From: Cyanophora paradoxa CCMP329
Lineage: Eukaryota; Plantae; Glaucophyta
Direction: 5' to 3'
DNA: 64,000 bases
Assembly: GCA_004431415.1 (NCBI GenBank)
Contig: QPMI01000523.1
Span: 62,001-126,000, forward strand
Positions 13,266 through 48,397 of this stretch are shown in pieces (positions within the stretch are counted from its first letter, which is position 1; every line of letters starts with the position of its first letter). The position numbers and the translations under genes were made by a program. Below the pieces are notes generated by a model. It was given only the letters and a program-made list of their open reading frames with translations, ran no database searches and was not told the DNA's origin.

Positions 13266-16200
13266 CTACGACCAGGCCTCCACGATGTAGCGGCTCGTCT
13301 GATATCACGCGGCGGATCAGCGTCTTCTAAAACCACCGAGACAGAACAGACGGTTCACCTTGCGCATCTCGTCGATGTACTTGGAGGCCATCTCGCGGGT
13401 GAAGCCGTCTTCCTTGCCGCCCTCCGACATGGCCGTCTCGATGGCGGCGCGGATGTCCTGCGGGACGCGCCCCGCCGGCCCGCAGAAGAAGAAGTAGCCG
13501 CCGCGCTTCACGAACGCCTCGTACAGCAGCTCCGGCTCCGCCGCGATCTTGTCCTGGATGTACACCTGCGCGGGCGGAGGAGGGTGAGGGGCGGGGCCCG
13601 AGGCGGGAGCCGGGCCGGCGGACCTTCTTGGGGCCGTCGCGGGAGAAGGCGACGCGGAGGTGGGAGAGGGCGCCCTTGGCGACGAACTCGTCCCAGCGGT
13701 CCGAGTAGAGGTAGTCGCCCTTGGAGTGGCGGCACCCGAAGAAGAGCACCGACCAGCCGACGCGCTTCCCGTGGTCCACCTGGAAGGAGCGCTCCTGCAC
13801 CATCGCCCGCATGGGCGCCAGGCCCGTGCCGAGGCCGGCCATGACGATGGGCGTGCTCGGGTGCGGGGGCATGCAGATGCCGACGCCGGGCTTGAGGGCG
13901 ACGCTGATCCAGTGCGGGCCGTCGACGAGCTGGCGGAGGTAGCCCGTGCAGGTGCCGAAGCCGACGCTCTTGTCCGGCTTCTCCCAGTCGACGATGACGA
14001 TGGAGAGCTCGAGCTTGCCCACGGCGACGTGCGGCGACGAGGCGATCGAGTAGTAGCGCGGCTTGATGGCGGGGATCATGTCGAGGAGCTGGGCGAGGGG
14101 CGGGCGGGCCGAGGGGTAGGCCTGGAGGACGCCGGCGTAGGTGACGTGGCCGAGGTCCTTGAGGAGGACGGAGAAGGCGGCCGTGCCGCGCCACGTCTTG
14201 CGCGCGATGCTGTCGAGCTCGTCGCGCTGGTGCACGTCCGTCGCGAACTTGGCGAGGGCCCCGAAGAAGCGCAGGTTCGGCCGCCCGAAGACGTCAACGC
14301 AGTCGCAGAACTGCGCCCCGCCCGACAGCCCCCGCTCAGCGCAGGCCTCGGCGGGAGAGCTAAGCGGGGCGGGGCGGCGGGGCGGGCGCACGTAGTCGAG
14401 GAGGGAGGTCTGGGGGCCCATCGGGGGCTTGGCCTTCGCGTCGCCCTTGAAGTGCTCGTTCACTGCGACCGGGCCGGGTTAGCCAGCTAAACAGGGCGCA
14501 GGCACTCATGGGGGGAGCCGGGCGGGGGCGGGCGGACGCTTGAAGGTGATGAGGTCGCTGGGCTCGAGGGCGTAGAACTTGAGGAAGGCCTTGACCTCCT
14601 CGGGGTCGTTGCGCGCGTAGATCGCCAGCGCGTCGCCCACCGTGTACTTGAGCGGCTCCGGCACCTGGTCCACCTCGAACACGATGTGCCGCACGTCGCG
14701 GTCATAGCCGTCGGGCGTGATGCGGACGTTGGACTCGACGCGGATGAGCTGGCCCATCGGGTCCGTTACGATCGGCTTCCAGGTCTCGTCGAACTTGCGG
14801 GCGCCGCCCTCCTTGGGCCCGGCCGTGAGGAAGACGTGGTGCGAGGGGAGCGGGATGGAGCCGTCGTCCTTGACGGGCGGGAGCTTGAGGGTCTTGTAGG
14901 CCTCGGGGGCCCACTTCTCGAAGCCCGTCTCGAAGCGCTCCTCGTCCTGGTCGTCGCCGACGCCGCGGGCGAGGAAGCGGTGCGCGCCGAGCTCGGCGAG
15001 GCGCTCCTCGATCTCGACGGCGGCGCGGTTGAAGTGCGCGTACGACGAGTCGCCGATGCCCATCACGCTGTAGTGGAGGTTGCGGAGCCAGCCGGGCGGG
15101 TGCTTCTTGCTGCTGATGCCCGTCCAGAAGTCCTTGGCGTTGTCGGGGATCTCGCCCTGGCCGGCCGTCGAGACGACGACGATGAGCGTGCTGACGGTGG
15201 CGAGGTCGTCCATCTCGAGCTCGTCGGCCTCCGTGCACTTGACGGCGATGCCGCGCGCCGCACACTCCTTGGCCACCACGCGCGCCAGCGACTCCGCGTT
15301 GCCCGTCTCCGACCCGTAGATGATGCGGATCGCCTTGGGCGGCAGCGTCCACTCGACGGTCGGCGGGTACTCGACGACGGCCGCCGGCTTGGCCTCCTCC
15401 GCGTGCGCCGCCTCCTCCTTCTCCTCGTGCATGCCGGCCGTCAGCGCGCTGAACGAGGCGTCCAGCGCCTTCTTCTCCATGTGGTCGTGCGCGTGCCCGT
15501 TGCCGTTGCCGTTCTCGTGCCCGTGGCCGTGGCCGTGGCCCTGCGAGGAAAGTTCAGACGTGGCGCGGCGGCGAGGCGAGGCGGCGCGGCGCGGCGCGCA
15601 CGTTCTCGGGCTTGACGTGGTTGGGCCAGAACTCGGTGTGGAGCAGGTGGTGGCTCTTCTCGCCGAGCGGCTTGCCGAGGTACTCCTGGTAGAGGGCCTT
15701 CACGGCGGGGTTCTCGTGCGACTTGCGCACGACGGCGCGCTCGTCCGACGTGTAGAGCGCCTGCATCCGCTTCTTTGCGATGCCCTTGTCCTTCGACTTG
15801 GGCTGCCCGGGGCCGCTGATGCACCCGTTCTGGCACATCACTTCGCGCGCGCGCGAGCGAGAGGGACCGTCAGGCTTCTTCTGCCGGGCGCGGAGGGGGA
15901 GGGCGGGCAGGGCGCACTGATTTCAACGAAGTGGAAGGGGCACTCGCCGGCGCGGGTCATCTCCATGATGCGCTTGATGCTCGTCAGGCCGCACACGACG
16001 CAGAACTTGAGCTCGCCGACCCCGGGGACATCCAGCGCGCCTGCGCGCGGCGCGGGGGCGGCGTCAGGCGCGGGCGGGCGGCGAGGGGCCGGCGCTCGCT
16101 CGCCTTCCTTGACGCCGAAGAGGCCGCGGGCGTCCCGAACCTCCACCTTCTCGAGGGTCTTGCCGGTCGCGAACTCGTACGCTGCGCCGCCCGGGTCAAA

Positions 16201-19292: not shown

Positions 19293-20770
19293 ATGCTTAT
19301 CAAGGAGGTCATGGTCGCAGGCATGTCGTCAGAGGCATCGAAAAGTTCAGCATCGTCGGCGAGCAAGAAAAGTGCGAGCGGCCCAAGACCGGCAGCACCG
19401 CTCAGCTGCAGCACATCCCCGTCGAATATTTCTCAACGGCCGTCGGCGGAAGTGAAACCGGAGGGGGCATCGAGCTCCCCTCAGGGGACTCGGACAGGTG
19501 CACCGCGGATAGGCGCATGTACCGCTACAAGTTTTATGTCTATTAATTATGGCGCAGGCAAGGGTAGAGAGCCTTTGACGGGACGGCCATCTGCTAGGGA
19601 GGGAGGTGCATCCGCGGTCACCGCTCCAAAGGGTGCGATCTACCCACTTCGTACCCCCGCTCGAGCTCGGTAGATCCGACCTGCCTGCAGGCAAGGATCC
19701 AGAGCAGGGGGACGGCGAGTCAAGGGGCGGGGCGAGGGGATCCGCTTCCAAGTATTCAACGGGTACGTCGTCGGCCGGCCCGAAGCCTTAGTCGAGATCG
19801 ATCACGAGGCACAGTTTGACGTGGCGGACGCAGATAAGAGCATCGCCTCTCCCTCGGAAAAGCAGGCGGAGGGCGCTGAATCGATAGGAGGAGATGGTGT
19901 ACCCGAGGGTGCATCTTCTAGCGGCTCGCCAGCGCCCTCCGCCGGCAGCCCTGAACCCCTACTCTTACCGCCCCTCTGACCTGCGTACAGAATCAAGCCA
20001 TCCGCCGGCGGGGAGAAAGTACAAGTGTCCCGATTGTTTCAAGATCTACGTAGCAGCAGGGAAGCATGTTACGTGTTGCGACGGCCTGCCAGGTGCGAAC
20101 AACACAGCCGAAACGAATGATGCAATAAAAGACGAGGTGCACGCATTGACACGCTGACGCACCCAACGTAGAGGATGCAATCGTGGAGTCCGGGAAGGTT
20201 GAGGAACGGAGCCTTCGATGTTCGCGCTGTCGGCACACGTTTGTGAGGCAGAAAGCATTTGATCATCATGTGAAGAACCACATCAGAAAAGGTAAAGCGG
20301 CGAGACAAAGTAAAGGAGTCGTGGGTTGTGATAAGGGTTCTTACGATAATCTGTCTCAGAGGAAGATGCAGAAGGGACCGAGAAGGAGACGGAGGCATCT
20401 GAAGCAGAAGAGGACAGTGCCTCACCTCCGCGTACTCGGAAGAAATCAAAGACGGCTGCAGCAGGTCGGTGAAGAATTGTACTCTTCGAGCGTATTGTAT
20501 ACGTTGAAGCGTTCACGAGCAGGGGACGTCGAGCATATGCAGGAGGGTAAGCGATGATCGAATCTGCTCATTCTTTGCGTACGCCGACATGGACTGTGTA
20601 CATGCAGGTGCCAGCACGCATTCCGAGGGTTCCAATGCGCCTCCTGGAGGGGGAGATGCGGCCCAACCGGCTGTACCGGCACCGGATCCTGCCCTGGTGT
20701 TGGGGTGGACACGCGCAGAAGTCAGCAGGTGGATGAAAGGAACCTTCTCACTTGAAGGGGATTCGGCAGA
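19293..20770 (+). CDS. 5' exons of a C2H2 Zn-finger / SAM-like domain gene interrupted by the viral element
   Basis: Exons with CPDCFKIY and CSRCRHTFVRQKAFDHHVKNH (C2H2); last exon WTRAEVSRWMKGTFSLEGDSA(E) joins in frame to 48466. Start uncertain. Confidence 0.5.
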
Positions 20771-20775
20771 GTACG
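20770..20775 (+). repeat. left target-site duplication AGTACG
   Basis: Identical hexamer at 48398-48403, directly outside the TIRs. Confidence 0.95.
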
Positions 20776-21567
20776 ACACATATGAATATTCATATTTTAA
20801 TCCCTCGGCGTTCCGCCTCAGGATTAAAATATGAATATTCATATGTGTGATTCGATGTTATATCAATAAAATCGATTAATTTATTTGAATTTTCACATGA
20901 ATTTTCATATTTTTATATGCAATTTCAATTAATTTAATCGATATTATATCGATAAACTCGATTAATCGATATTGTATCTTAATTGTAGTTAATCGGAATT
21001 ATATCAATAACTTCGATTGATCTTAATTGAATTCTAAATGAATCTAATCGGAATTATATCAATAAATTCGATTAAATCATGTTCTTTTCCGATTAAATCA
21101 ATTAAATATTTAACTTTGTTACCATAAGTGGTCTAAGTTGACTCACTTTTCATAAACATTTTGAACTCTTAGTCTCCTTGAATTTCTTAAGATGACTCAA
21201 CTTAGTCAACTTAGTCAACTTTGTTACCATAATCAATCAGGGTGGACTCACTTTTAGATCAACTTTGAAATTTCAAGCAAAATCAACTTTGATTTCAAAA
21301 GTGGATCTTCTAAGTGGACTCAAAATGTTCACTTTGTGATACATGTTAGCTCAAATCCTTACTGTTTATGGTCAGGGTTGACTAAGTGGGGGGAGTTGAC
21401 ACATTTTGTGAAATCCTTTTTAGAAAACTTTTGGTCCCAAATATTTCCTGTGAAATTTGAGTCAACTCAACCCACTTAGTCAACCCTTGCATTGAATTCG
21501 TAACAAAATCCATATACTTTTACTACTTTTACGATTAATATGAGTCAACCTTGAGTCCACTTAAATA
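20776..21567 (+). repeat. left terminal inverted repeat (792 bp)
   Basis: Reverse complement of 47606-48397; I saw 4 mismatches, all in the inner ~170 bp; weaker similarity continues to ~21600/47568. Confidence 0.95.
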
Positions 21568-21832
21568 ATAGGGTAATAGGGGGAATCTAGGGCAGATGCT
21601 GAGTGTTATTGTAAGGAAATCGAATAGTATTCGAAATACTTGACATTGCTTAATGTAGGGTGCATTCATATTTCGGCTACATCATACAGTAGAATTCTAT
21701 TGTAACAAAAGCTACTGTAGAAAGAAAATCATTGTAGAAAGCTATTGTAGGAAAGGATATATTATATCCTTTTTTAACGATTGCCATTGTAATAAAAAAG
21801 GTAAATTACCCTGTTTATCATTATAGAAACCA

Positions 21833-22231
21833 TCAAAACGGGAATCTATCATGTTTATGTCTCTCAGTCTTCTCAAATGTTAAGAAATTCATTGTTTTAT
21901 CGATCTCATCTGCAACTGCTTGTGTTTTATGCTGAGCTTCTTTACCACAACTGAATATATCAATTGCTAACATGCCTTCATTGGAATAACAATGAGCTGT
22001 GCAATGGCTTTCATCTAATAGCAGAACCAATGCAAAACCAGGAGGTGATAGTTTGCCATCAAATATCTCACAATGCTTATGAACAATCCTAATACCTTGT
22101 CTCAATACTGCTTGTTCAAGGGTTCCCATAATCCAATTACCTAGGAAGCTAACATGCTCATAACCTGTTGCTATAGCTGATTTAGCCTTGTAATCAAGCA
22201 TAACATGAAAGCCTCTGTATTTAGTCTCCAT
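21833..22231 (-). CDS. speD: S-adenosylmethionine decarboxylase proenzyme family (prokaryotic class 1B, pyruvoyl)
   Basis: GFHVMLD, self-cleavage motif LLLDE|SHCTAH, AIDIFSCG; 132 aa. Confidence 0.85.
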   Translation of the reverse strand: METKYRGFHVMLDYKAKSAIATGYEHVSFLGNWIMGTLEQAVLRQGIRIVHKHCEIFDGKLSPPGFALVLLLDESHCTAHCYSNEGMLAIDIFSCGKEAQHKTQAVADEIDKTMNFLTFEKTERHKHDRFPF

Positions 22232-24584: not shown

Positions 24585-25604
24585 TTATGTGATACTTAGA
24601 AGTTCACCTGTGAAAAGTGTTCTACTTGAATAACTACCTGTGGAACCTGTGACAAGTGTTACATACTCACCAGCAGGAACATTGATAATTGCACTGAGAG
24701 TAAGAGGTTTGGTTGTGATAGTGGAATTAGCTTCTACTGAAATGTTAACTCCATTGGGTAAAAGATTATTTTTCAGAAAACTAAGACTTATTGCAGCACT
24801 TGTTGTTGAATTGGTATATGCTGTAAATCTATAATCACCTGCAACAAGAGCTGTAAACCTTCCATTAGTAACATCGAATGACCCTGTATTATTTATCAAA
24901 ACGGTTGTCCAATTGATCAGAGCGGCTGCACTTGTAGCAACATGAGTATATCCAAGTTGAACAGAAAATCGTGGCTGAGAAACATATTTTAAATAGCTTG
25001 AATTCAGAGTCAAACGATTGGCTTCCAGAGTTGCAACTACATCACTATTGCGTTTCAGAAGAAGATTTACATTCGCTCCTGTATCTATTTCAGGAGTGAC
25101 CACCTTGGTTGATGCTGTTATTATTGATTCTGTGGAATTGGGAATACTAATTCCAGCATTTGCTGTTACCAATCCTGTAAATGTGCTTGTTCCTGTTATG
25201 CTTACTTGATTGGCTGTAAGGGTTCCATCAATCCTCGCCCCATCTCCAATATAAGCGCCTCCACTTCTTACTACAAGAGCTGAGTTATTGATGGTGTTGT
25301 CAAAGGTAACAATCTTTGGTGTGGTGAACCCTCCCACATCATCATAAATCGCTGAATCTGATAAAATCTGACCTGATTGAACTTGGTTCTTGTTTGAGAC
25401 TATTAGACCTGTGGTTCTCACCTTGCCTGCATTTCGATCACATCGAATTTCTTTGCATCTGATCACAGAATGTTGAGAGAATGAATCGGCTCCTGTGGTC
25501 TCTGTGCAAATGAAACCTGGGGTAGCATCTGTTACTGTATGGTTCAGTTGATGCAATTTCGGCGCTGCATAACAGAAAACAGGAACAGCTATTTGTGTAG
25601 ACAT
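24585..25604 (-). CDS. fibre-like paralog 2 with C-terminal C1q-like head
   Basis: Shared N-domain; G/T-rich shaft; gC1q pattern PRFSV...INWTTVLINNTGSFDVTNGRFTALVAGDYRFT...FTGELL. Confidence 0.75.
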   Translation of the reverse strand: MSTQIAVPVFCYAAPKLHQLNHTVTDATPGFICTETTGADSFSQHSVIRCKEIRCDRNAGKVRTTGLIVSNKNQVQSGQILSDSAIYDDVGGFTTPKIVTFDNTINNSALVVRSGGAYIGDGARIDGTLTANQVSITGTSTFTGLVTANAGISIPNSTESIITASTKVVTPEIDTGANVNLLLKRNSDVVATLEANRLTLNSSYLKYVSQPRFSVQLGYTHVATSAAALINWTTVLINNTGSFDVTNGRFTALVAGDYRFTAYTNSTTSAAISLSFLKNNLLPNGVNISVEANSTITTKPLTLSAIINVPAGEYVTLVTGSTGSYSSRTLFTGELLSIT

Positions 25605-25626: not shown

Positions 25627-26685
25627 TTATGTAGCACTTACCAGGTAAACCAACAAGATGTGATTGTTTGGAAAGTCAATACTACCTAACATACAGTAAA
25701 TTTGAAGACTGTCTCCCATGGTGAGGGTAATAAGAGCTTCGTAGCACATCTGATTCCTGCTTGATTGACTTGCATATGAAAGAATCAGATTTGTATTGTT
25801 TCCGTTTATTCTTAGTCCAATCTGGGAGGCAGTTGCAGTAATGTCTTCCGTAATTGTAAAATAGACCCTATAAACTCCTGAAACAGGGGCTGTAAATGTT
25901 GCTGGATACAGTTTGTCAAAATGACCCTCATTATTCACAAGATATGTTCCAACTGGAAAAGAAAGTGTTGGGGTGCCGGAACTAACACTTGTTCCAAAAA
26001 TCTGAGCGTTTGCTTGTTGTCCTGAAATACACATTCTTGGGCAATAGCTGCGTTTAAGACCACTGTTTGTTGGAAATGTGATTGCTTTCAGATCTGTTAT
26101 TGTCTTTTCGAGAGTGAAAATGATATCTCCGTTTCGTTTATAATTCACATTTGCATCTGTCCCATTATCCATCTCAGGTGCATTAACTCTTGTAGTAGCT
26201 ATTCGAGTAACATAGTTAACATCTCCTGAGAGACCACCATTAAAGGTCATCAATCCTGTGAATACACTTGTCCCACTCACATTTAATTGGTTTGCTGTAA
26301 CAGTTCCTGCTACATTTGCTCCATCTCCAATGTAGGCACCACCACTCTTCACCACAAGAGCAGAAGTATTGCTTGTGTTACCAAAAGTAATTATCTGTGC
26401 TGTGGTGAATCCACCCACATTATCATACACTGCTGAATCGGGGACTACCTGACCTGCTTGAACTTGGTTTTTATTCGAGATTATAATGCCTGTGGTTCTA
26501 ATCTTGCCTCCATTTCGATCACATCGAATTTCTTTGACCCTCAGTATACTGTTCTCTGTGAAAGAGGTATTACTTGTAGTTTCAGTGCAAATAAAACCGG
26601 GTGTGGAGTCGACTACTTCATGAGAGGTGCTGTGGAGTGATTTGGCTGCAAGTTCATAGTTTGGAATCTCTAAAAGGGAGGTCAT
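25627..26685 (-). CDS. fibre-like paralog 1 with C-terminal C1q-like head
   Basis: Likely start MTSLLEIP; shared N-domain; NNEGHFD...TFTAPVSGVYRVYF...LTMGDSLQIY. Confidence 0.75.
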   Translation of the reverse strand: MTSLLEIPNYELAAKSLHSTSHEVVDSTPGFICTETTSNTSFTENSILRVKEIRCDRNGGKIRTTGIIISNKNQVQAGQVVPDSAVYDNVGGFTTAQIITFGNTSNTSALVVKSGGAYIGDGANVAGTVTANQLNVSGTSVFTGLMTFNGGLSGDVNYVTRIATTRVNAPEMDNGTDANVNYKRNGDIIFTLEKTITDLKAITFPTNSGLKRSYCPRMCISGQQANAQIFGTSVSSGTPTLSFPVGTYLVNNEGHFDKLYPATFTAPVSGVYRVYFTITEDITATASQIGLRINGNNTNLILSYASQSSRNQMCYEALITLTMGDSLQIYCMLGSIDFPNNHILLVYLVSAT

Positions 26686-26704: not shown

Positions 26705-29700
26705 TTAAATTGCGACAGCAATGTAATGAATTGTAACTGGAAATCCTGGTCTGTCAAAAGAACTTAATGGAACTATGTCAAGCTCACAAGTGAAATAGCT
26801 ACTGTAAACTTGTTTAAGCCTAACATACATTCGATAGTAGTAGGCTGTCTCATTGTGTTGTATACCAGTTGTTACAATAGGAGGGTTAGCAAAGCTGCTG
26901 TTGAAATTAATAGTGAGGTTAAACCTATGGTCAGGATTTGCCCAAAGATAAGGAGTAGTGTAAACATACGTTCCTGCTTGGATTTTCCCATTAAAATATG
27001 CATTGAGTTGACTGGAAAGATCTGCCTCTGTAATACATCGACTGATGGTCGCATTATTTGAGGGTTCATAGCATAGAAATTTCTTGCATAGGCATTTCCA
27101 CGAACAAGTAAGGTTTTATCAAAGTAATTCTGCGAATTGTGGAAGAACCATGTTTCTTCAAACATAGGTCCTGCTGGTTCTACAATCTGACCTGATCCTA
27201 CATACATTGTGTTGTTGGCTCTGATTGTGGTGGCTGTGAAAGGATCAAGAGTTGGTCTATTGGTCAAATCATTGTAGTTTCCTGAGAAAATTGCAGGTTT
27301 GTTATAGATATCTGTATTCCAATCATGAGTGTGTGCAAAATCTGTAATCTCTGCCTTTGTGTGGGTGTGACCAACATATGCAACATTTCCAAGATCTGTA
27401 ATCTCTGCCTTGGTATGGGTGTGACCCACATATGCAACATTTCCGAGATCTAAGATCTCAGATTTAACATGAGTGTGAGCGAAATTTGTGATATCTGCTC
27501 TTGTGTGGAAGTGTGCAAAATCTGTAATTTGTGATTTGGTGTGAGTGTGTGCAAAATCTGTGATTTCTGCCTTTGTGTGGGTGTGTGATCTATTATTTAG
27601 ATCAAGGAAACTACCCGAAAATGCAACAGGATGCAGATTTGCAGCAGTGGGTTTATTTATGAGATCATTATAATCTCCTGTGAAAGAGATGGTCTTTAGT
27701 TCACCCCTTCCTACATAATCAGAAGGGAGATCAATCTTAATGGGCATAATAGCTGGATCATCAGGTATCTCATACTCACCTCCTGGATGAACCACAGGAA
27801 AGGTTTGATTGCTTTCAGTATGGACAAAGAAGTTACATGCTGTTACTGTTCCATCAATAGTCCCACCTGTGAGAGGGAGGTAATTGCCTGTAACACCAAT
27901 ACCTATACCTGCAATGATTGTATTTAGTTCTGTTTCATCTATGTAGTTCTGAGCTTGAAGGTAATCCTCTGTGACTACTCTCGAAATGCTCTCATTGTGT
28001 ATGTTTTTTGCAGCCATTCTTTGATTGGCTTCCAGAACCCAACCATAATCTGTTTTAATCCATGCAAGCTCTGCCCTTCCATAATTATCATTTGCAGTTC
28101 CCACTATGGGAATGTAGGAATACTTATCTCGACTGAAAACTATCATTGGTCTTGAGCCATCTAAGCTGCTTACATCTGCTACATGAACCTGTATAGCAGA
28201 GTTGTAATTTTGGTAGGTTGCTGGGTCTGTTGGGACTCTGAATGTATCTGTGGGAATGTCAGCCTCCATGTAGCTTGACACAAAGATATTTGGTATGGTT
28301 GCTCCTGGTGGTGGTGGGGTTTCAAAAGAGCCTGGTAATGTCCTAATATGAAGTGGTCCTCTCATAGCTGAATTTGCAAGTGTCCCTTCCACATGAACAT
28401 AGTGGTGATTCAAAAAGATCCTTTCAGGGACATTGCAAGTCTGGTAAAGAGAAACTCCCAGAGTAGCAAGAGGCTCTACTTTTGCGAATTCTGGTTGGTC
28501 ATTGATCTCATCCCAAGTATGTTCATGTTTGCTTGGTGGGAACTCAGTTGGAATCCCATCAATTTCTCCCCAATCATGCCTGTGATCCTCTGGTGGATAC
28601 TTTTGAGGTTTGCCTAAGATCTCATCCCAATCATGATTGTGATCCTCTGGGGGATACTTTGCAGGTTTATTATTAATTTGTTCATAATCAGGAAAGAACT
28701 CCCAGATCTCAGGTCGAAATCCATCTGGTAATAGTTCCTCATGGGGTTCATAAGGTTGCTCATAGTCAACAGCTGGTGGATCAAGACCATCTGGCAAATA
28801 CTCCTCATCAGGTTCATAGTTCTGCTCATACTCAAACTCTTGTGGATCTAAGCCATCTGGTAGTATCTCCTCCTCATTGGGGTCAAATTGATCATATTCA
28901 TATTCTTGTGGGTCAAAACCATCTGGTAAATACTCTTCCTCATCTGGGACGAATTGATATTCATCAAGCTCTAATATATCGACTTCAGGAGGTAAATACT
29001 GCTCATCTATTTGCTTTCTTGGTTCAATTATAGGTTTATTGCGAACTTGCTCCCAACTCACAATATGCTGCCCAAAAGCAACTGTCTCATCTGCTGTGTA
29101 CTCTCTGCCTGGTTGCTTTTTCGGTGTTAAATCCGGTGGATCCATGGAAGAGGGAAGGGAACTGGGACAGGTCCATAATACTCAAAGATCTCTCTTATGG
29201 TCTTCTCACTTACAAGCTTCTCACCATTTGCATACACATTACTGCCATGGATATTTCGCCATTGCCTGGTTCGAATTCCAAGGTCTTTCACATTGCTATA
29301 CAAAGGCAAAAGGTGCCTATCCATTTCAACAAGATCAGGATGTAAATGGATTGCTACTGGCTGACTGGGCTACTGTTGATTGTAATTGATGGCTTTTTTT
29401 GATGGACATCTTTTGGAGTAAAGAACCCAAAAGGCTCATTCCTTGCAAAGTCATATGTAATATCCTTGGGGTAGACATCATTTGTGTAGGAGACCTGATT
29501 TGTATTGGCAATGGGACCCACTTGCAATACTTGGGGGACCTCAGCTTTTGCAGTGCTGCCCTCATTGTAAATTCGCAAAGCTGTGTTCTGTTTGCCCTGC
29601 TCATCTTGAACATTGAAAACCAAACGACCACTATCAAACCTGGAAGGTATATCTGGATGAGTGCCACTGGTTTTTAGTTTCCTAGGTCTCCTTCTTGTTG

Positions 29701-29993: not shown

Positions 29994-31549
29994 ATGCCTC
30001 TCAAGGTCGTTTTAAGTCTTTCTGGCGGGGGTGCAAGGGGCATTATCATAACCAGGCTGCTAAAAGAAATCGAAAATCGAACTGGCAGGAGAATAATCGA
30101 TCTTGTGGATCTTGTGAGTGGAACTTCCACTGGTGGGATCATTGCAATAGGTTTGAATATAAGGCATCCTGATAAACCAGGTGAACCTAAACTGACAGCA
30201 AACGATTTACACAATATTTACCTAACTCAACTGCCCTTGATTTTCGCAAATCCTCGAAATATAATCGAAAATGCCCTTTTTAATACAAAGTATGATGTGG
30301 GACCCTTGGAGACTGCAATCAATTCAGTTACTGGTGAATCACTAATACAGGATTCCCTAAAGGACATTGTGATTACATCCTTTGATACTCAGAATATGAA
30401 ACCAATATTTATCACAAATGACAACAATTACAACTTTATGCCCTGTAAGATTGCTGCTAGGGCTACTTCTGCTGCTCCTACATACTTTTCACCTGTAAGC
30501 ATTGTTGATTTCAATCGGGGAGTATATGTCTGTCTCATTGATGGTGCCATTTCTGGAAACAATAATCCCAGTGTGTGTGGTTACAGCCATGCAAAGAAAA
30601 TTTACAGTGATGATGATGATATTATAGTAATAAGTATATCTTGTGGAGAGGTGGACCCACATTTAGAGTCTGATTATGTGGGTTATGCTTATGAGACTGT
30701 CAACAGCTGGGGCATTCTCTCATGGATTGCCTCAACAGATGGAAGCCCATTGATTAACATGCTCATGGCTGCAAGTGAGCTTTCTGCCCTTGATAAGATG
30801 GAGGAGTTGTTACCCTACAACTATGATCAGGATTATGGGAGATACTATAGGCTATCAGTCCCACTTCCAAATCATATAGTAAGCTCCCTGGATGACACTT
30901 CTAAAATCCCAGACATGCTTGCATTCACTGAAACATACATTGCAGCAAACAATGATATGATTAATAAGCTTTGCAGCATTCTAGTAGCAAACTATGAATT
31001 AAAGAACCCTTCAAAGGCTTACATATCATCCACTCTCACTACATCACCTCCTTTGGATGCAAATTGGTATCAGCTTGCAGATGATGCCTTCACTGCCTCA
31101 TCCTCTGTGACAGGTAAAGAGCCTTTCATGGCTAGACCTTCAGCATTTGGCTGGGAAGCTGGAGCCTATGCTCCTGAGCAGATATGGGAAACCCCCACTG
31201 AATACCTTCAAGTTGCTTTCCCATATACTTTCGAACTCTCCTCTGTTATTGCCTATGGTTCAGGGACACCAATGCTTTTATTAAGACTTTCAATGTGGCA
31301 ACATCCACTGATGGGATCAACTGGTCTTTTATTCGATCAGATGGGCAGAACAAAATATATGTCTGTGAGAACATTAACAATGCTCACAACTCAGGTGATG
31401 TTGCTTTATTGAGTGGATTTCCTCTCAGCATCAAGGATGCTTTTTACATAGGTTTTTCTCTCAGAATCAAGTATATTCGCATTTATCCCCTTGTGTATGT
31501 GAATGCTCCCACAATGAGAGTGGACTTTACAGGTGCCTTTATTCGATAA
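29994..31549 (+). CDS. patatin-like phospholipase fused to a C-terminal F5/8 type C (discoidin) domain; one frameshift ~31270
   Basis: LSLSGGGARG, GTSTG, ATSAAPTYF, IDGA; C-terminus FTASSS...W...EYLQVAF...FIKTFNVATSTDGINW...KYIRIYPLVYVNAPTMRVDFTG. Confidence 0.85.
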
Positions 31550-35039: not shown

Positions 35040-35980
35040 ATGCTGCCTCTTACAACTTCAGATTTCATTGAGCGAAGCAAGGGTAAGTATGGAGACAAAT
35101 TTGGGTATGCGAAAACAGAATACAAAAATGCAAAAACAGTTTTAACAGTTACCTGTAACACTTGCCAGAAAGATTTCACATCTTTACCTCACCACCATCT
35201 AAAGGGTAATGGAGGTTGTAAGAGTTGCAAAAGTGATCTCTACCATAACCTATTTGTAAAGCCAGTCGAGAAGTTCATAGAAGAAGCTCAAGTAATTCAT
35301 GGTGACAAGTAAGATTATTCACAGGTAAAGCAAAATTACAAAAATGCGAAAGTGAAGGTAGCAATCACATGTAAGAGTTGTGGAAATGTGTTTCAGCAAG
35401 AGCCATATTCACATCTTAGAGGTCGAGGTTGTCGAAAATGTGGTCATCAGGAAAAGGGTGCAAAATTGAGGAGCAATACTTTGGAATTCATCTCAAAAGC
35501 AAAGAGCATCCATAGAGACAAGTATGATTATAGTCAAGTTGAATATAAAAACAAGTTTAGTATCGTCAAATTGAAATGCAACATTTGCTTGAATGAATTC
35601 CAACAGGAAGCAAGAGTACATTTAATGGGAAGTGGCTGCATTGCTTGCAAAGCTTCTAAAGGAGAGAATGCAATTGCTTCCATCCTCAATAATATTGGCT
35701 TAGAGTACGAAAGAGAGTATGCTTTCAAGGACTGCAAGGCTCTAAGAGTTCTCCCTTTCGATTTCTATATGCCTGCATTGAAAATAGCTATTGAATATGA
35801 TGGAAAACAACACTTTGAACCTGTTGAATACTTTGGAGGGAACAGGATTTTGAGAAACGAAAACTAAATGATGCTATTAAAACTAGATACTGTGAAGCCA
35901 ACAACATATTACTCCTAAGAATCCCATATACTGAAACAGATATAGAGGGTTGCATTAAACGATTCTTATCTAACCTGTAA
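35040..35980 (+). CDS. Zn-ribbon repeat (DUF723-like x3) + PD-(D/E)XK endonuclease, frameshifted
   Basis: Repeats FI.KAK.IH.DKYDYSQVEY..C..C..F.Q..HL.G.GC..C; C-terminal LPFDFY..KIAIEYDGKQHF and DAIKTRYC..NNILLLRIPY. Confidence 0.8.
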
Positions 35981-36039: not shown

Positions 36040-36735
36040 ATGACTGATTTGGATGAATTTTTGGCTGGTGAAATGATAGAACCACCATTTCGTGTATTGG
36101 CAATAGGAAAATCAGCAACTGGTAAATCAGAAGCTGTAAAGTATTGGTTGAAGCAGTTGCATGATGCCAAAAAGATTGATGTTGTATTAGTTGTGAGTGG
36201 TACCAGCTTCAATCATTTCTGGGATAAAGTTGCAACATTGCAACTGGGAAAATGGGATGCCCCTTACATTGCTAAATTGCTAGATGAGAGGCAAGAGAAA
36301 ATAGAGAAAGGTGAACCTGTTAACCAGTTATGTGTAGTTTTAGATGATTTAATCGATAATGAGATAGTCGATCTCACAAGGGATAAAATAATCGGATCTC
36401 TGTATTCCAGAGGTCGCCATTCGAAAATATCCATTATCTGCATCACACAAAAGCTAAGAAAAGTCTCTTCGACTATTCGAGTCAATTCTGACTATGCTAT
36501 GTTTCTCAGTGCTGCTAATCGCAAAGAACTTGAAGCCATAGAGGAAGAATACAATATAATGCGAAATAAAGAGGATTTCTACAAGATGTTTGAAGAGTAT
36601 GTTCACTCCTATCAATATATCATTTGGTCCTCTGCAAACTACTCAGTTAAATACTATGTAGATAAAGCTGAGCTTGTGAAAGATTTCCCATTTCCTCGCT
36701 TCCACAGGAAGCCAAAAAGAAAGAGGATGAACTGA
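36040..36735 (+). CDS. genome packaging ATPase (A32-like, FtsK-HerA)
   Basis: Walker A GKSATGKS, Walker B CVVLDD, RGRHSKISIICITQ, IRVNSDY. Confidence 0.9.
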   Translation: MTDLDEFLAGEMIEPPFRVLAIGKSATGKSEAVKYWLKQLHDAKKIDVVLVVSGTSFNHFWDKVATLQLGKWDAPYIAKLLDERQEKIEKGEPVNQLCVVLDDLIDNEIVDLTRDKIIGSLYSRGRHSKISIICITQKLRKVSSTIRVNSDYAMFLSAANRKELEAIEEEYNIMRNKEDFYKMFEEYVHSYQYIIWSSANYSVKYYVDKAELVKDFPFPRFHRKPKRKRMN

Positions 36736-41396: not shown

Positions 41397-41482
41397 GTTT
41401 AGTCAAAGGTGGACTCACAGTTGATTCAAATTTATCATAAAAGACCCAAACAGTCTTTTATTTACGGTTTATTTATCGATTA

Positions 41483-41588: not shown

Positions 41589-41639
41589 AAAAAATGATTT
41601 AAGAGATAGAAAAATATATTTATATGTAAGTAGTAAGAA

Positions 41640-41990
41640 ATGGCTGGAACAGATCATGATTCTGGATCGATCTATATGATTGAGAGTGAAGAATTGAATA
41701 AAGTTTATATAGGGAGAACCTCACAGCCACTACAAAAAAGATGGAGACAACACAAATCAGGTCAAATGCCATCAACAGCAGACCTATGCAAGGCTTCGGA
41801 TGTGAGGTTTTCAGTCCTTTATTCAACTAAGAAGGGTGGGCATGAAGACCTTATGAACAGAGAAGCATATTACATGTATCTCTTTGAACCTTGGATAGTC
41901 AATCTACAAAAACCGAAATCTCGATTTAGGATTAATAGGTTTTTGCGATTTCATTCAGAGGAAGCCAATGGATCCATTAAAACATTTTAA
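41640..41990 (+). CDS. GIY-YIG endonuclease
   Basis: GSIYMI...VYIGRT..LQKRWRQH...E...N. Confidence 0.85.
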   Translation: MAGTDHDSGSIYMIESEELNKVYIGRTSQPLQKRWRQHKSGQMPSTADLCKASDVRFSVLYSTKKGGHEDLMNREAYYMYLFEPWIVNLQKPKSRFRINRFLRFHSEEANGSIKTF

Positions 41991-42049: not shown

Positions 42050-45000
42050 ATGCCCCGAATTACCAACAAACTCATAAGGGAGAAGAAATGGGAACTCATG
42101 GGATTGCTGGGAACACTATATGCAGCCCATGAAATAACAGAGGATGAATATGACCGGGAAATAGATTAAATTGCAAGGGGCAGACCCACTTTAAGCAGAT
42201 TAACCAGAAAAGCAAATAACCTATATGATAAAATTGAAACCTTGGATGAACTGGATAGGCTTAGGCAAATAGAACCAGAGGCAGAAGATGGAACAGCCAT
42301 GAATGAATTATATCGCTGGCTCACATACAGAGCCAGAAGGGAAGTTGTTGTAGATGTGATTGAATTCCTGGATAGAATTGCTACATCCCTTCCAAATCGA
42401 TTAAAGCAGGGTTTAGATCAATTCAGGGCAATCAAGGTTCGCTTGTCTTTTATCTGCAAGTTCGTTAAAGTGAGCAATCCACAGGTTTGGATATCGAAAT
42501 ACATTTACAGTGATTACTTTGTATTAACCAGGTCGAGAAATATTCGAACTGAGCTGAATAAAGCAGCCCAAATGTGTCAGGAGCAGATGAATGTGGTTGA
42601 TAGCTATCGCTTAGAAAGAATTGAAATACTCAGAGTGGCTATTATGAGTTATGCTCCAACTGGTGGATGCTTTCTACAAACCCCAGAGTGGATTGCTAGG
42701 AAGAGAGCCACAGTGAATATTCGAAATATAGATGATTCCTGCTTCGAAAATGCGATTTTAGCCTCGATTTACAGAAAATCTATTAACTCCCATAAGAGGA
42801 ATGAGCTTTCACAATATCGCAAATGGAAATACTCAGCAATCGCTTATAATCCGCTGGCTCTCAATTTCGACAATATCCCATTCCCTGTTGCCTGTGATGC
42901 TGAAATAATTGATAAATTCGAGGCTCAAAATGCAGGCATTAGCATTAATATATTCGGAATCGATGGAGAGGTTGTTTATCCCCTGCATCAATCCAGTAAC
43001 CCAGGCAGAAAGCATAAGGTTAATCTCATGCTGATATTTGATGATGAAGGGAATGGTCACTATATTACAATCATGTCCCTTTCAAGGCTATTGAAAGTAA
43101 ACCATGAAACATACAATGATCAGAAGTTACACTACTGTGATACATGCTTATCTCGATTCAGGTCTGAGGCTAAACTCACTGCTCATGTGGACTCAAACAG
43201 ATGCATTGATTGGAGACTCTCAAAGGGAATCACCCCTAAACCTGAGACCACCATAGAGTTTGGACTGAAAAACCTCAGGAAAACTGTGTGGCTTCCTGTT
43301 GTGGTTTACTGCAAGATTGAACATAGAAGCATCCCCATTGATGCATCGAAATCCAAGAGGGAAGTCTCAGCAGTGAACCTTAGAGTAGTCACTGGGGAAG
43401 ATGTTCAAGATTTTCGATTTGAGGGGCAGGATCCAATGGGAGGTCTCTTTGAATGCTTGGAGTCCAAAGCAAGAGAGCTGATCGATTTTCTGTTTACCAA
43501 TATTCCCATGAATGAACTCACAGATGAGCAAAAGGCTATTTACAGAGCTACCAAACACTGTTACCTTTGCAGTGAGAGGTTCACCAAGGAAAACTTCAAA
43601 TGCAGGGATCATGATCACCACACAGGTAATTACATTGCTCCTGCATGCAGAAACTGCAATCTCCATAGGAGAATCTCAAAGCAAACCAAAGTTGCAGTTG
43701 TTGTTGACCAAATGGATGACTGTGGGACATTCATTTTCAGAAAAATAGCAGGCATGGGTGATAAAAAGCGAATCGAAATCCTTTCGAAAAACTTTGATCA
43801 ATACCTTTCATTGCAATGGGGTCTTTACAAGTTCATTGATGCAAGTAATTTTATGGACTTTGGGGCTGCTGATGTAGATGAGTTAATGAGCAAATTCCAG
43901 GCTTTCAGAAGGCTTTCACACTCAGTATATGGACTTGACCCAGTTCATTATGTATCTGCACCTGGGCTATCTTGGGATGCTATGCTTAGGACCACCAAGG
44001 CAAAAATAGAACTCATCAGTGATGTAGAGCAATACGAATTTGTTGAGAGGGGAATCAGGGGTGGCTTTGCAACAATGCCTTGTAGGTATGCTGAGGCTGA
44101 TGGTGAGAACTCCCATATAATGCTGTTTGATGCTAACAACTTGTATGGCTACTGTTTGAGTCAGCCAATTCCAGTTGGTGATTTTAGATGGGAGACCGAA
44201 TTCAACCCACAAGATAACAGATCCAGTTTCCTGGAAGTTGATCTGGATTACCCAATTAGGCTATATCTAGACCACAGTGATTTCCCCCTAATTATTAACA
44301 AGAAAATAATAGATTATGCCGAATTATCACAATATCAAAAGAGCCTATTAGATCTTTCAGGAGAAGAACTTGATAAAACCCCTAAGCTTACTGCAACCTT
44401 TGGCTCTGTGACCAACTATGTGATTTCTGAGCCTCTTCTACAGTATCTGTTAGACAAAGGGGTGAAATTAAAGAAGGTTCACAGGGTCCTATCATTTACT
44501 GTGGCTCCTGTAATGAAACCATATATTGAGCTGAACACTGAGATGAGAAGGAGAGCAGTGAATAAATTCGAGGCTGATTTCTATAAGCTCATGAATAATT
44601 CAATCTATGGGAAATGCATTGAATCTTGCAGGGGTAGATCTGTGGTTAAGATTGCAAACAGTGAGAAACTGTTTACGAAATATGCAGCCTCTCCATTGGT
44701 GAAATCAACAAGCCCCATAAACGAAAGAGCAGTTGCCTTTGAGTTTTACACAAAACATGTGAAGCTAGATAAGCCAGTTGCCATTGGAGCCTATGTTTTG
44801 GATGCTGCCAAACTGCATAATTACCAGTTCTTCTATGATACTATAAGGTCCCAATGGTCAAAAGCAAAGTTACTATTCCATGATACTGATTCCTTTTGTC
44901 TATATATCGAATCTCAGACCCTCCAAAAGGACCTGGGAATATCTCTTATGCATTGGACCTTGGAGGTGATTCAAGAATGACCCCAGGTAAATACAAAAAT

Positions 45001-45294
45001 GAGATGCCAGGTTCTGCTATATTGGAGTATGTGGGTCTGAGAGCCAAAGTTTACAGTTTCAGAACTGCTGAGATTGAGAGAAGTAAGCTCTCTGGGACTT
45101 CTACTGAGGAACTCCAATTTAATGATTTTAAGCAGTGTTTATTTGCAGGTATCAGCAAGACTGTGACTGCAAAGCAGAAGAGAAGGGCAGATCACACAAT
45201 AATAGATACTGTGAGTAGAAGGGTTGCCCTGAACTGCTTTGATGCAAAGAGATACATCTTACCAGATGGTATTAATTCTGTTCCTTTTAATTAA
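42050..45294 (+). CDS. polB: protein-primed family B DNA polymerase (Maverick/adintovirus type); in-frame TAA at 42167-42169, frameshift ~44935
   Basis: Motifs LFDANNLYG, KLMNNSIYGK, HDTDS, GLRAKVYS; N-terminal VNIRNIDDSCF/GHYITI region, a C2H2 finger and an endonuclease VII-like CxxC..RDHDH..G..C..CN. Confidence 0.92.
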
Positions 45295-45297: not shown

Positions 45298-46683
45298 ATG
45301 CCAGCAACTGCAAGAATAGTTAGAAGAACCACTGAACAACTGCAAGGTAACCTACTGCCCATCACAATTCCAAAGGAGGAAAAGGGAGAATCTCGAATTG
45401 TTAAAAAATCAGAGATGAAAGAACTTGTCCCAGTAGAGATTCCAGTTGCAATTGCAGTGAAAGAAACCAGCAAGATTGCCAAGAGATTCTATGATGTGAG
45501 AACTGGTTACAAAGGGCTTCAAGCTATGAGGGCTGAGTTACCAGATGAATCCTATAAGCAGTTGCAAGAGTTCTATAAAAAGCAAGAGGTAGTTCAGATC
45601 AATGCACCTGCTATATCTAGGAAGAGAGATCCCATGGTCCCAATAAGGCAACCCCTTGATACCTATGTGATTGATTTGCTCTTTTTCCCAGCTTATAAGA
45701 AACAAAACAATGGCTATGATACCTTTATGACTGCAATGGAATCTACACTGAGAACTGGGTATATCATACCTATAAGGGATAAATCAGCTCTCACTACATT
45801 AGCTGCATTTAAACAGCTTGAAATGAGAGTGGCAAGACCCATAGTAAAAGTTCAATCAGATGCTGGGAGTGAATTCCAAAATCGAATATTCCAGGAGTAT
45901 TTATCTAGTAAATTCATAGAACACCAAGTGAGTGGAACTGCTGACCATAGAAGCCAAGGTCGAATTGAAGCCTTTAACAAGCAGATTAAGAGACTGATCA
46001 CAAACTATTGCATAGCTAATAACACAGCTAGATTCTTTGATGTGTTAGGTGATATTGAGTATAATTACAATAATACAGTTCACTCAGCTACTAAGATGAA
46101 GCCAGGCGAAACTACAGAGGAGCATTATAGGTATATAGTGGGATTAGAAGATGAAAGATTCAAGAAATCAATAGCTTACCTTGATACCATGCAGCCTGGC
46201 ATGTTTGTTAGAGTGAAAGTTGAGAAGAACCCCTTTGCTAAACAGGGTAACAATTGGTCTAGGATGGTTTACACTGTTGATAGTAGGGAAGGCTTTAAGT
46301 TTAAGCTAAGGAGTCCCACTGGTGAGATCATAGAAAACAGGTTTGCTTTCCATGAGCTGTTGCCTGTGAATGCAGTTGAATATCTAGAAACCCCTACAGT
46401 GGATGCCTTGGAGCAAGCTAAAGAGGAAGCCAGGGCTGATGCTGCTATAAGGAGAGAAGGCATAGAAGCTGCTAATGAAGTCCCAGTTAAGCCTTTGATA
46501 GAGGCTAGGAAGGAGAAGGCTGGGAAAGTTAACAGGGAACTCAAAAAGCTCACTATAGCAGGAACACAGAAACTTTCAGAAGTGAATAGCCAGAGATGGT
46601 ATAATGACTTTCAGACTACTAAGGAGTCATATACAGCCCCTAAACCTCAAAGAACACTAAGAGAAAGGACCAAAACTAGCTAG
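45298..46683 (+). CDS. retroviral-like (rve) DDE integrase
   Basis: YVIDLL (D), VQSDAGSEF (D), GRIEAFNK (E), YNNTVHSATKMKP, SH3-like GMFVRV..NWS; uninterrupted; consistent with the 6-bp TSD. Confidence 0.93.
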   Translation: MPATARIVRRTTEQLQGNLLPITIPKEEKGESRIVKKSEMKELVPVEIPVAIAVKETSKIAKRFYDVRTGYKGLQAMRAELPDESYKQLQEFYKKQEVVQINAPAISRKRDPMVPIRQPLDTYVIDLLFFPAYKKQNNGYDTFMTAMESTLRTGYIIPIRDKSALTTLAAFKQLEMRVARPIVKVQSDAGSEFQNRIFQEYLSSKFIEHQVSGTADHRSQGRIEAFNKQIKRLITNYCIANNTARFFDVLGDIEYNYNNTVHSATKMKPGETTEEHYRYIVGLEDERFKKSIAYLDTMQPGMFVRVKVEKNPFAKQGNNWSRMVYTVDSREGFKFKLRSPTGEIIENRFAFHELLPVNAVEYLETPTVDALEQAKEEARADAAIRREGIEAANEVPVKPLIEARKEKAGKVNRELKKLTIAGTQKLSEVNSQRWYNDFQTTKESYTAPKPQRTLRERTKTS

Positions 46684-47605
46684 TTTGCTAGGCGAAAACT
46701 CGTTTTTTCCAAATATATGTATGACTGATATACATATATGCATATGATATACACATAGTCTTGTAGATCTTATCAAGCGCTTCACAGCGCTATGCAGAAC
46801 GTTGCGTTTTGATGATCTGGTGATGAGATATAACAGTTTGAAGATGCAAAAGTCACTTGCCATAGTGGGCTTGGTGAAACACTAGCCCAGGAGTCGACTT
46901 GGAACCAAGTCGTTTTTGGCTCAGCGGTTAAGACGCTTGGATTTCCGAGTCGCCATTCAAATCCGCTCGGGAACCTTTACTTCGTTCGCCGTGAAACTTG
47001 AAAAGTTAAAAAAAAACGCGGTTTTTTCTAGATTAATGCTGTACCCGTCTGGAAAATCATTATTCACGTTTGCTGCGATATCTCAGCACCAACTTATCAA
47101 ATCGATGCGCTTTAAACGTCATAAAATCGAGCATTTCAAGGCGGTCTGAGCGCTTATCAGCCATATCGACATTTCGATAACTCTGACTCGAAATCGCGAT
47201 GAAACCGATTTTGAATTTTGATTTTAAATTCGATTAAAATGCATTAAACGTGAGTTTTTAATATAGATCACCAGGAAGTTATCAAATCGATGCACTGGCG
47301 GTAAAATATAATGACATATATCATACATAACAATAACTTGCAATCACATATACGAATCTCGATGTGTATACATCGCTATTACGATTAAAGCGAGTTTTGA
47401 AATTCAAAATAATTCGATTAAATTCGATTATAACTCAAAAATCGCGAGTTTTAACCATATACTTATCAATTCGATCAACGTATGATATCTTATATTCCGC
47501 TATATTGTATTGCTTCGATAAACGTGATCACATATATGAAAACATCAATCTAACATTGCATTTAGTAAGCATCTCCCCAAGATTCCCCCTATTATATTAT
47601 ATTTA

Positions 47606-48397
47606 TATTTAAGTGGACTCAAGGTTGACTCATATTAATCGTAAAAGTAGTAATAGTATATGGAATTTGTTACGAATTCAATGCAAGGGTTGACTAAGTG
47701 GGTTGAGTTGACTCAAATTTCACAGGAAATATTTGGGACCAAAAGTTTTCTAAAAAGGATTTGAAAAAATGTGTCAACTCCCCCCACTTAGTCAACCCTG
47801 ACCATAAACAGTAAGGATTTGAGCTAACATGTATCACAAAGTGAACATTTTGAGTCCACTTAGAAGATCCACTTTTGAAATCAAAGTTGATTTTGCTTGA
47901 AATTTCAAAGTTGATCTAAAAGTGAGTCCACCCTGATTGATTATGGTAACAAAGTTGACTAAGTTGACTAAGTTGAGTCATCTTAAGAAATTCAAGGAGA
48001 CTAAGAGTTCAAAATGTTTATGAAAAGTGAGTCAACTTAGACCACTTATGGTAACAAAGTTAAATATTTAATTGATTTAATCGGAAAAGAACATGATTTA
48101 ATCGAATTTATTGATATAATTCCGATTAGATTCATTTAGAATTCAATTAAGATCAATCGAAGTTATTGATATAATTCCGATTAACTACAATTAAGATACA
48201 ATATCGATTAATCGAGTTTATCGATATAATATCGATTAAATTAATTGAAATTGCATATAAAAATATGAAAATTCATGTGAAAATTCAAATAAATTAATCG
48301 ATTTTATTGATATAACATCGAATCACACATATGAATATTCATATTTTAATCCTGAGGCGGAACGCCGAGGGATTAAAATATGAATATTCATATGTGT
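47606..48397 (-). repeat. right terminal inverted repeat (792 bp)
   Basis: Reverse complement of 20776-21567. Confidence 0.95.

What the first reader, a model, noticed from the sequence alone, without database searches (positions are those of the whole stretch)
20776..20848. 73-bp terminal hairpin with nested palindromes at both genome ends
Seen: a perfect 28-bp stem (20776-20803 with 20821-20848) around CTCGGCGTTCCGCCTCA, which holds a GGCG-TTC-CGCC mini-hairpin (GAA loop on the other strand). Each arm contains the 16-bp palindrome ATATGAATATTCATAT. The structure is mirrored at 48325-48397. Established: Polinton ends are usually short simple repeats for protein priming, while fold-back ends typify parvoviruses and poxviruses. 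Inference: self-priming or hairpin-telomere replication, with resolution possibly by the EndoVII-like domain of PolB or the GIY-YIG protein.
Basis: partly seen in the sequence, partly recalled or inferred. Interest (0 to 1): 0.85.

Follow-up and report, generated by a model that had tools for sequence, protein, structure and literature searches.

The report
Hairpin ends on an integrated virus
A 27.6-kb virus-like element inserted in a eukaryote's genome ends on both sides in an exact 73-base DNA hairpin, shared by its sister copies in a mostly fixed orientation, which likely lets a single-stranded copy prime its own replication; similar ends were already reported in a protist in 2026.

Summary
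Observation confirmed. The hairpin forms the first and last 73 nt of an integrated Polinton-like virus (20776-48397, 803-bp TIRs, 6-bp target duplication). Public contigs show the empty site and at least five other insertion joints. The hairpin is unchanged across 7 runs. One loop orientation dominates (X1: depth 4800 of about 4900-5000), with 2-3 low-depth joints in the opposite sense, so AAV- or poxvirus-type 1:1 flip/flop is not supported. Only the 3'-ending strand can close its loop with T.G, tandem G.A and a GAA triloop, which fits a 3' fold-back primer or cap. PolB keeps its terminal-protein fold and vOTU residues. Its exonuclease motifs and the conserved Ser-Gly of the priming loop are lost, in its closest relative too. 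The EndoVII-like insert occurs in 110 of 120 homologues, so it is no specific sign of hairpin resolution. Terminal palindromes with the same priming hypothesis are in print for Halocafeteria virophages and PLVs (bioRxiv 2026), and this scan noted two other Polinton-end hairpins on other DNA. Best reading: self-priming with orientation-preserving end regeneration (0.45); no step is shown biochemically.

The parts
20770..20775 (.). Left copy of the 6-bp target-site duplication
   Evidence: empty site with a single copy
20776..20848 (.). Left terminal hairpin: outer arm 20776-20803, 17-nt loop 20804-20820, inner arm 20821-20848; the - strand (3'-ending) carries the GA-rich loop
   Evidence: no substitution listed in 7 runs
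20780..20795 (.). 16-bp palindrome in the outer arm (second copy 20829-20844 in the inner arm)
20807..20817 (.). 4-bp GC mini-stem with 3-nt apex (TTC on +, GAA on -); hairpin centre 20812
20776..21578 (.). Left TIR (803 bp ungapped; about 825-830 bp gapped at 98.3%), with 55-nt AT-rich repeats and an internal inverted pair 21374-21403/21458-21487
21833..22231 (-). S-adenosylmethionine decarboxylase-like ORF
   Evidence: Pfam PF02675
24585..26685 (-). Two paralogous C1q-domain, fibre-like ORFs (24585-25604, 25627-26685)
   Evidence: PF00386; 300-nt repeat D2
29994..31412 (+). Patatin-like phospholipase
   Evidence: PF01734
33565..34928 (+). Major capsid protein gene, broken into several reading frames in this copy
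   Evidence: one piece 59% identical to P0125, whose model matches PBCV-1 double jelly-roll MCP at E 4e-19
36040..36735 (+). A32-type packaging ATPase
   Evidence: PF04665
38805..41396 (+). Primase-helicase (PriCT-2 and D5-like SF3 helicase; AEP part inferred) in four ORF pieces
   Evidence: PF08707, PF19263; PHROG primase hits
41640..41990 (+). GIY-YIG nuclease, 116 aa
   Evidence: PF01541; homing-endonuclease PHROGs
42299..45294 (+). Polinton-type pPolB: TP fold, vOTU Cys148/His254, exonuclease motifs lost, EndoVII/HNH-like insert, Pol A/B/C motifs kept; C-terminal part in a second frame (44977-45294)
45298..46683 (+). rve integrase; D126 and D188 (invariant) and E224 form the likely DDE triad
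   Evidence: PF00665 (below curated cut-off); alignment
47595..48397 (.). Right TIR
48325..48397 (+). Right terminal hairpin; the + strand ends 3' here, with T48397 pairing A48325
48398..48403 (.). Right copy of the 6-bp target-site duplication

Best explanation
The 73-nt hairpin is the exact terminus of an integrating Polinton-like virus, and its 3'-ending strand likely folds back on a single-stranded intermediate to prime (and shield) its own copying. SHOWN: the palindrome runs to the last base of the element; integration makes a 6-bp duplication; sister copies share the sequence; one loop orientation dominates. INFERRED: (1) an excised or strand-displaced single strand folds so that its 3' T pairs with the first base of the inner arm, leaving TIR interior as template for the exonuclease-less PolB or a host polymerase. 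(2) The 3' strand's loop closes with T.G, tandem G.A pairs and a GAA triloop, which would favour this orientation. (3) The resulting closed end is reopened without inverting the loop, either by a cut at the old 3' end or by asymmetric resolution as at the MVM left end. The 5' strand would then be rebuilt by terminal-protein or primase priming before the rve integrase inserts it. The nuclease is not identified.
For: Exact coincidence of palindrome end and element end, with the empty site. At least five other host joints start at the arm end (loose ends). No change within the 73 nt is listed in 7 runs, while the TIR interior has several; the expected number in 73 nt is below one, so this point is weak. 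Strand asymmetry of the loop comes from the sequence. Tandem GA mismatches stack unusually strongly (PMC8163305, passages), and GNA triloop hairpins resist 3' exonuclease (PMC13037366, passages). The near-invariant Ser-Gly of the TP linking loop (Ser in 74 of 82, Gly in 70 of 82 aligned homologues) is Asp-Ser in a loop 4-5 residues shorter, here and in P0005. That loop is where linking residues sit (PMC11161782 section 6). A D5-type primase-helicase is present, matching the reported link between palindromic ends and non-pPolB replication genes. A single-orientation parvovirus left end has been reported (PMC1185569, passages; that paper questions the result).
Against: PolB keeps the TP fold (model pLDDT 90.5; best Foldseek hits are Y-family polymerases, E about 3e-3, above the 1e-3 cut) and the vOTU Cys/His. 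Ser102 and Tyr103 remain at the loop in both proteins, so protein priming may be intact. The ACAC start would suit sliding-back initiation (recalled knowledge). ViennaRNA separates the two strands by only 1.1 kcal/mol. The triloop is closed by G-C, not the C-G of the most stable mini-hairpins. Simple nick-and-extend resolution predicts 1:1 flip/flop, which is not seen. No HUH nicking enzyme was found (31 ORFs against Pfam; 15 against PHROGs). No relative with intact ends was found, so covariation is untested.
Confidence: 0.45

Rival explanations
1. Ordinary protein-primed replication. The palindrome works as duplex DNA: two 16-bp palindromic binding sites 49 bp apart plus a doubled integrase attachment end. 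The rare opposite-sense joints are loop inversions between the 28-bp arms, or integrations of the hairpin alone.
For: TP fold, vOTU Cys148/His254 and a Ser/Tyr at the linking loop are retained. Fixed orientation is what protein priming predicts. Each arm carries a perfect 16-bp palindrome.
Against: It does not explain why the inner arm matches the outer arm exactly to the last base, nor the one-strand loop asymmetry. The conserved linking-loop Ser-Gly is lost in both lineage members.
Confidence: 0.25
2. Cruciform or hairpin-telomere model. The palindrome extrudes, a junction resolvase (PolB's EndoVII-like insert) cuts at its base, which is the host border, and excises a genome with covalently closed ends that is copied by the D5 primase-helicase as in poxviruses.
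For: The four-way junction would fall exactly on the host/element border. The EndoVII-like motif is intact. A D5-type helicase is present. One low-depth contig breaks at 20811, one base from the hairpin centre, in X1, X6 and X20.
Against: Symmetric resolution gives both orientations (PMC8956199, passages), but one dominates here. The insert occurs in 110 of 120 homologues. No RuvC-type resolvase or protelomerase hit was found. Integrated ends carry the whole palindrome on both strands, which needs an extra opening step.
Confidence: 0.15
3. A fold-back repair accident in the family founder, inherited by all copies, with no role of its own.
For: All copies seen are nearly identical, so descent alone explains sharing. 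The preprint names this alternative.
Against: The accident would have had to stop exactly at a base that then serves as the integration end in every joint seen. Such ends occur in five Halocafeteria subtypes.
Confidence: 0.15

Closest known systems
Terminal palindromes of Halocafeteria seosinensis endogenous virophages (subtypes 1, 2, 5, 6) and PLV subtype 4 (bioRxiv 10.64898/2026.07.28.741278; passages and whole of section 7 read)
   Same: Palindrome inside the TIR, next to the TSD, in rve-integrating elements; same hairpin-priming hypothesis; D5-type replication gene.
   Different: 73 nt against 52 nt (subtype 5). There the palindromes go preferentially with non-pPolB genes; here a pPolB is present but remodelled. 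'Flip' and 'resolv' occur 0 times in that text, so orientation was apparently not examined. Its supplements could not be seen.
Polinton/Maverick protein-primed replication (TP-vOTU-Exo-Palm pPolB; PMC11161782, sections 5 and 6 and passages read)
   Same: pPolB with TP and vOTU, rve integrase, 6-bp TSD, long TIRs, double jelly-roll MCP, A32 ATPase.
   Different: Exonuclease motifs lost, linking-loop Ser-Gly replaced, extra primase-helicase, no maturation protease hit. The ends are a hairpin rather than AG-type microsatellites (that end type is recalled; Kapitonov and Jurka 2006 was not held).
Parvovirus rolling-hairpin ends (AAV ITR; MVM/LuIII left end)
   Same: Base-paired 3' end able to prime; mismatched loop; a single orientation as reported for the LuIII left end.
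   Different: No HUH Rep/NS1 found; 27.6-kb element with its own polymerase and integrase; no 1:1 flip/flop as in AAV (recalled).
Poxvirus flip-and-flop hairpin telomeres (PMC8956199, passages)
   Same: AT-rich imperfect palindrome; D5-type primase-helicase in the genome.
   Different: No A22/RuvC resolvase hit; orientation strongly biased; the element integrates with the open, full palindrome.

Membership tests
Polinton-like viruses | [quoted passage not shown] | tested here: met
   Window gene is broken; its intact 59% homologue P0125 models (pLDDT 60) onto PBCV-1 Vp54 at E 4e-19
Polinton-like viruses | A32-type packaging ATPase | tested here: met
   PF04665, E 5e-11
Polinton-like viruses | Minor capsid protein | tested here: inconclusive
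   ORFs 31539-32471 and 32501-33511 beside the MCP have no Pfam or PHROG hit; not folded
Polinton-like viruses | 15-40 kb, long TIRs, integrase with matching TSD | tested here: met
   27,622 bp, 803-bp TIR, rve integrase, 6-bp TSD
Polinton/Maverick in the strict sense, or virophage | Capsid maturation cysteine protease | tested here: not met
   No hit among 31 ORFs scanned against Pfam; a remote homologue could be missed
Protein-primed replicons | TP domain with a hydroxyl linking residue in the alpha2-beta4 loop | tested here: inconclusive
   Fold kept; conserved Ser column holds Asp101, loop shortened, Ser102 and Tyr103 adjacent
Protein-primed replicons | Protein covalently bound to 5' ends | not testable with these tools
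   needs free DNA
Halocafeteria-type palindromic ends | Palindrome within the TIR adjacent to the TSD | tested here: met
Halocafeteria-type palindromic ends | Association with non-pPolB replication genes | tested here: inconclusive
   Both a D5-type primase-helicase and a remodelled pPolB are present
Parvovirus-type rolling hairpin | 3' end base-paired in a terminal hairpin | tested here: met
   T48397 pairs A48325; predicted fold only
Parvovirus-type rolling hairpin | HUH Rep/NS1 nickase | tested here: not met
   none
AAV/poxvirus-type symmetric resolution | Flip and flop ends in similar amounts | tested here: not met
   X1: window orientation 4800 against shared next word 4800; X20: 50 against 3.3 + 5; X19: one contig in window orientation
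Poxvirus-type hairpin telomeres | Covalently closed ends | not testable with these tools
   only contigs, no raw or long reads were served
Poxvirus-type hairpin telomeres | RuvC-type Holliday junction resolvase | tested here: not met
   none; an EndoVII-like insert is present but general to the PolB clade

The most novel reading that the evidence does not exclude
This lineage has moved from protein priming to hairpin self-priming. Its PolB has lost the priming serine and the proofreading exonuclease, extends a 3' fold-back stabilised by G.A pairs, and reopens the closed end without inverting it through its own EndoVII-like domain. That would be a Rep-free, orientation-preserving rolling-hairpin cycle in an integrating double jelly-roll virus.
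Probability: 0.18. Interest if true: 0.85.

Novelty: new variant of a known kind. Interest (0 to 1): 0.5.

Why it matters
How most Polinton-like viruses leave the host chromosome and start replication is unknown. The hairpin-priming model proposed in 2026 had no orientation test in the text I read. This family supplies one: many near-identical copies, a polymorphic insertion with its empty site, and an organism with at least 20 public runs holding the element. The contigs argue against symmetric flip/flop resolution. The PolB differs from its relatives at exactly the priming loop and the exonuclease, so short oligonucleotide assays can separate hairpin priming from protein priming.

Tried and rejected
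No whole genome is held, so sister copies could be seen only through contigs. An exact search for a 20-nt piece of the arm in viral contigs gave 0 matches. Single-protein locus searches found nothing (integrase in viral contigs; PolB in metagenomes). Alignment-based scans gave 77 distinct loci (11 + 46 + 21, one shared), all distant (mostly 21-39% identity). Of 154 locus ends, 1 has a perfect terminal stem of 12 bp or more (L018, 25 bp). It overlaps the start of the integrase ORF at a contig end and was rejected as a likely assembly fold-back. Most of these ends are not genome ends, so this null says nothing on conservation. The DNA following the apex break (20811) has no match in the window. 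The ESM Atlas gave no answer. A sequence search of P0125 against PDB found nothing. In passage searches of the Tetraselmis PLV, PgVV-14T and PLV-framework preprints, 'hairpin' occurred 0 times and no terminal palindrome was mentioned; the cryptophyte paper had 0 hits for 'palindrom' and was not searched for 'hairpin'. Only 7 of the 20 holding runs were laid. X17's TIR contig starting one base off the window orientation was not counted as evidence, since X19 and X20 of the same sample show the window orientation. Whether the frameshifts are decay or assembly error was not tested. No complex was predicted, because no binding claim is made.

Full report
Observation. The stem, loop, nested palindromes and mirror copy are exactly as described. 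They are far beyond chance: the best stem in 300 composition-matched resamples of the TIR was 13 bp against 28 observed, and the folding z-score is about -14. A 6-bp duplication lies directly outside both outer arms. The element is therefore 20776-48397 (27,622 bp, about 40% GC inside host DNA of 50-80% GC), and the hairpin is its first and last 73 nt. Both ends have the loop in the same sense relative to the TIR.

The element. It encodes an A32 ATPase, an rve integrase with a likely intact DDE triad, a Polinton-type pPolB, a primase-helicase, a GIY-YIG protein, a patatin, C1q fibres and an AdoMet decarboxylase. The capsid gene is broken into frames. Its only close homologue, P0125 (59%, from a eukaryote proteome set), models onto the PBCV-1 double jelly-roll. 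No maturation protease was found. It is a Polinton-like virus. In this copy the MCP, primase-helicase, PolB and one nuclease gene are interrupted; whether by decay or by assembly error is untested. The host was not identified.

Other copies. Twenty runs of one coded organism hold 0.65-0.68 of the sampled words. Seven were laid, as contigs only. The host flank runs straight from 20775 into 48404 in X7, X17 and X18, confirming the boundaries and showing that this insertion is polymorphic. TIR and hairpin depth exceed host-flank depth 5- to 20-fold (X17 167/31; X1 about 4900/255). That is not a copy number, but it points to a multi-copy family. At least five other host joints begin at the arm end. 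No substitution or indel is listed within the hairpin. Back-calculation of hidden records gives at least 4250 of 5000 depth for words with a base beyond the outer arm in X1, so most hairpins there are joined to flanking DNA.

Flip/flop test. With 31-letter words (word length inferred from the 31-nt records) and 28-nt arms, two words on each side phase the loop. In X1 the word joining the window-sense loop base, inner arm and TIR (20820-20850) has depth 4800, the same as the next shared word (20821-20851), which leaves little room for the other sense. In X20 the same word has depth 50, against 3.3 and 5 for two records in which non-TIR DNA abuts that arm. X19 has one 713-nt contig through the whole stretch in the window sense. 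Opposite-sense joints: X17 record 10 (4506 nt, whole hairpin, GC-rich DNA behind 20848); X20 record 15 (30 letters on the hairpin side, one short of the tool's bridging rule; the same loose end in X6, another study); and X20 record 17 (a single word). They may be true flop ends, solo hairpins or rearranged ends; contigs cannot tell which. A 1:1 mixture, as symmetric resolution predicts (PMC8956199, passages), is not seen. One low-depth contig in X1, X6 and X20 leaves the hairpin at 20811, next to its centre at 20812.

Strand asymmetry. The strand that ends 3' reads T-GA-GGCG-GAA-CGCC-GA-G in the loop: a T.G wobble, tandem GA/AG, four G-C pairs and a GNA triloop. The complementary strand has C.A, TC/TC and TTC. 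Tandem GA steps stack strongly (PMC8163305, passages). Only GNA triloops formed exonuclease-resistant mini-hairpins in a 64-loop screen (PMC13037366, passages), though that screen used a C-G closing pair and this loop has G-C. Nearest-neighbour folding shows only a 1.1 kcal/mol gap. This is a post hoc but testable sign that the single-stranded 3' end is the working form, and it would explain the fixed orientation.

The polymerase. 285 homologues were found and 120 listed; the named ones are mostly from animals. The N-terminal 320 residues fold confidently (pLDDT 90.5), with a loop at residues 98-102 between alpha2 and beta4. The best structural hits are Y-family polymerases (E about 3e-3), consistent with the TP origin from the little-finger domain given in PMC11161782. 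Among 82 aligned homologues that loop has Ser in 74 and Gly in 70. Here and in the closest relative P0005 (48%) it is Asp-Ser-Tyr and 4-5 residues shorter. vOTU Cys148 and His254 are kept. ExoI, II and III are lost in both proteins; P0005 is one of only 2 of 120 lacking both ExoI and ExoII patterns. Pol A, B and C motifs are kept. The EndoVII/HNH-like insert is in 110 of 120 homologues, and HNH inserts in Polinton pPolBs are in print (10.1101/2023.08.22.554363, passages). Protein priming is thus neither shown nor excluded, and the insert is no specific sign of hairpin resolution.

Mechanism. The most likely role is a 3' fold-back primer and cap on a single-stranded intermediate, with ends regenerated without loop inversion (0.45). 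Rivals are plain protein priming with a duplex binding role (0.25), cruciform excision with closed telomeres (0.15) and an inherited accident (0.15). Only the anatomy, the boundaries and the orientation bias are shown.

What is known. The Halocafeteria preprint reports palindromes within TIRs next to TSDs in four virophage subtypes and one PLV subtype, and proposes hairpin priming (bioRxiv supplements are closed and may hold the palindrome sequences). Literature searches for PLV, virophage or Polinton hairpin ends listed no other paper on the point in their top rows. Kapitonov and Jurka 2006 was not held, and its model is known to me only through the preprint and PMC4046053 (passages). PMC12220804 (passages) supports 6-bp TSDs for rve integrases; for PMC12721341 only the abstract and outline were seen. 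Two earlier notes of this scan describe longer end hairpins in other Polintons (unchecked). No orientation test, loop asymmetry or altered TP loop appeared in what I read.

Verdict. The feature is real and exactly terminal, and belongs to an already reported kind. What this case adds is a pPolB remodelled at the priming loop and evidence against symmetric flip/flop. New variant of a known kind; interest 0.5.

Noticed in passing
window 41472-41590: Internal copy of a TIR motif (32 nt at 97% to 21376-21407) with an inverted partner at about 41556-41590, between the helicase and GIY-YIG genes; possibly a protein-binding site, promoter or origin.
   Followed up: partly
window 20811 (contigs in X1, X6, X20): A low-depth contig leaves the hairpin one base before its centre and continues into unrelated DNA starting with TG; either a cut at the hairpin tip or an insertion into the loop.
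   Followed up: partly
window 20815-20844 (X1): Depth arithmetic implies one hidden record (depth about 76) that diverges at 20845, i.e. possibly one copy with a changed inner arm.
   Followed up: no
window 33565-34928, 35040-35867, 38805-41396, 42050-45294: Several genes are interrupted by frame changes or stops although the TIRs are 98-99% identical and the insertion is polymorphic; either a defective copy moved in trans or assembly error.
   Followed up: no
window 21833-22231: The element carries an S-adenosylmethionine decarboxylase-like gene next to the left TIR.
   Followed up: no
window 20848-21098: Four AT-rich repeats of about 55 nt directly inside the hairpin (family D7), rich in ATCGAT-like sites.
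   Followed up: no
window 21460-21550: Summed contig depth peaks here, with diverged contigs (13 differences in about 103 nt), suggesting that other element families in the host share this TIR motif.
   Followed up: no
window 26872-29145: Long ORF with acidic repeats and phage-tail-like repeats (PF12789); tandem 54- and 36-nt units at 27336-27605.
   Followed up: no
window 13327-15480: Host diflavin reductase-like gene (flavodoxin, FAD- and NAD-binding domains) in two ORFs.
   Followed up: no
window 48404-48470: The host DNA right of the insertion is AT-rich (28% GC over 67 nt) against 50-57% nearby. A 121-nt repeat at 83% links 48921 and 55715.
   Followed up: no
L063 5755-5831; L004 10649-10804: Long internal AT-rich hairpins (36 and 47 pairs) in distant PolB- or integrase-bearing viral contigs; not terminal.
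   Followed up: no
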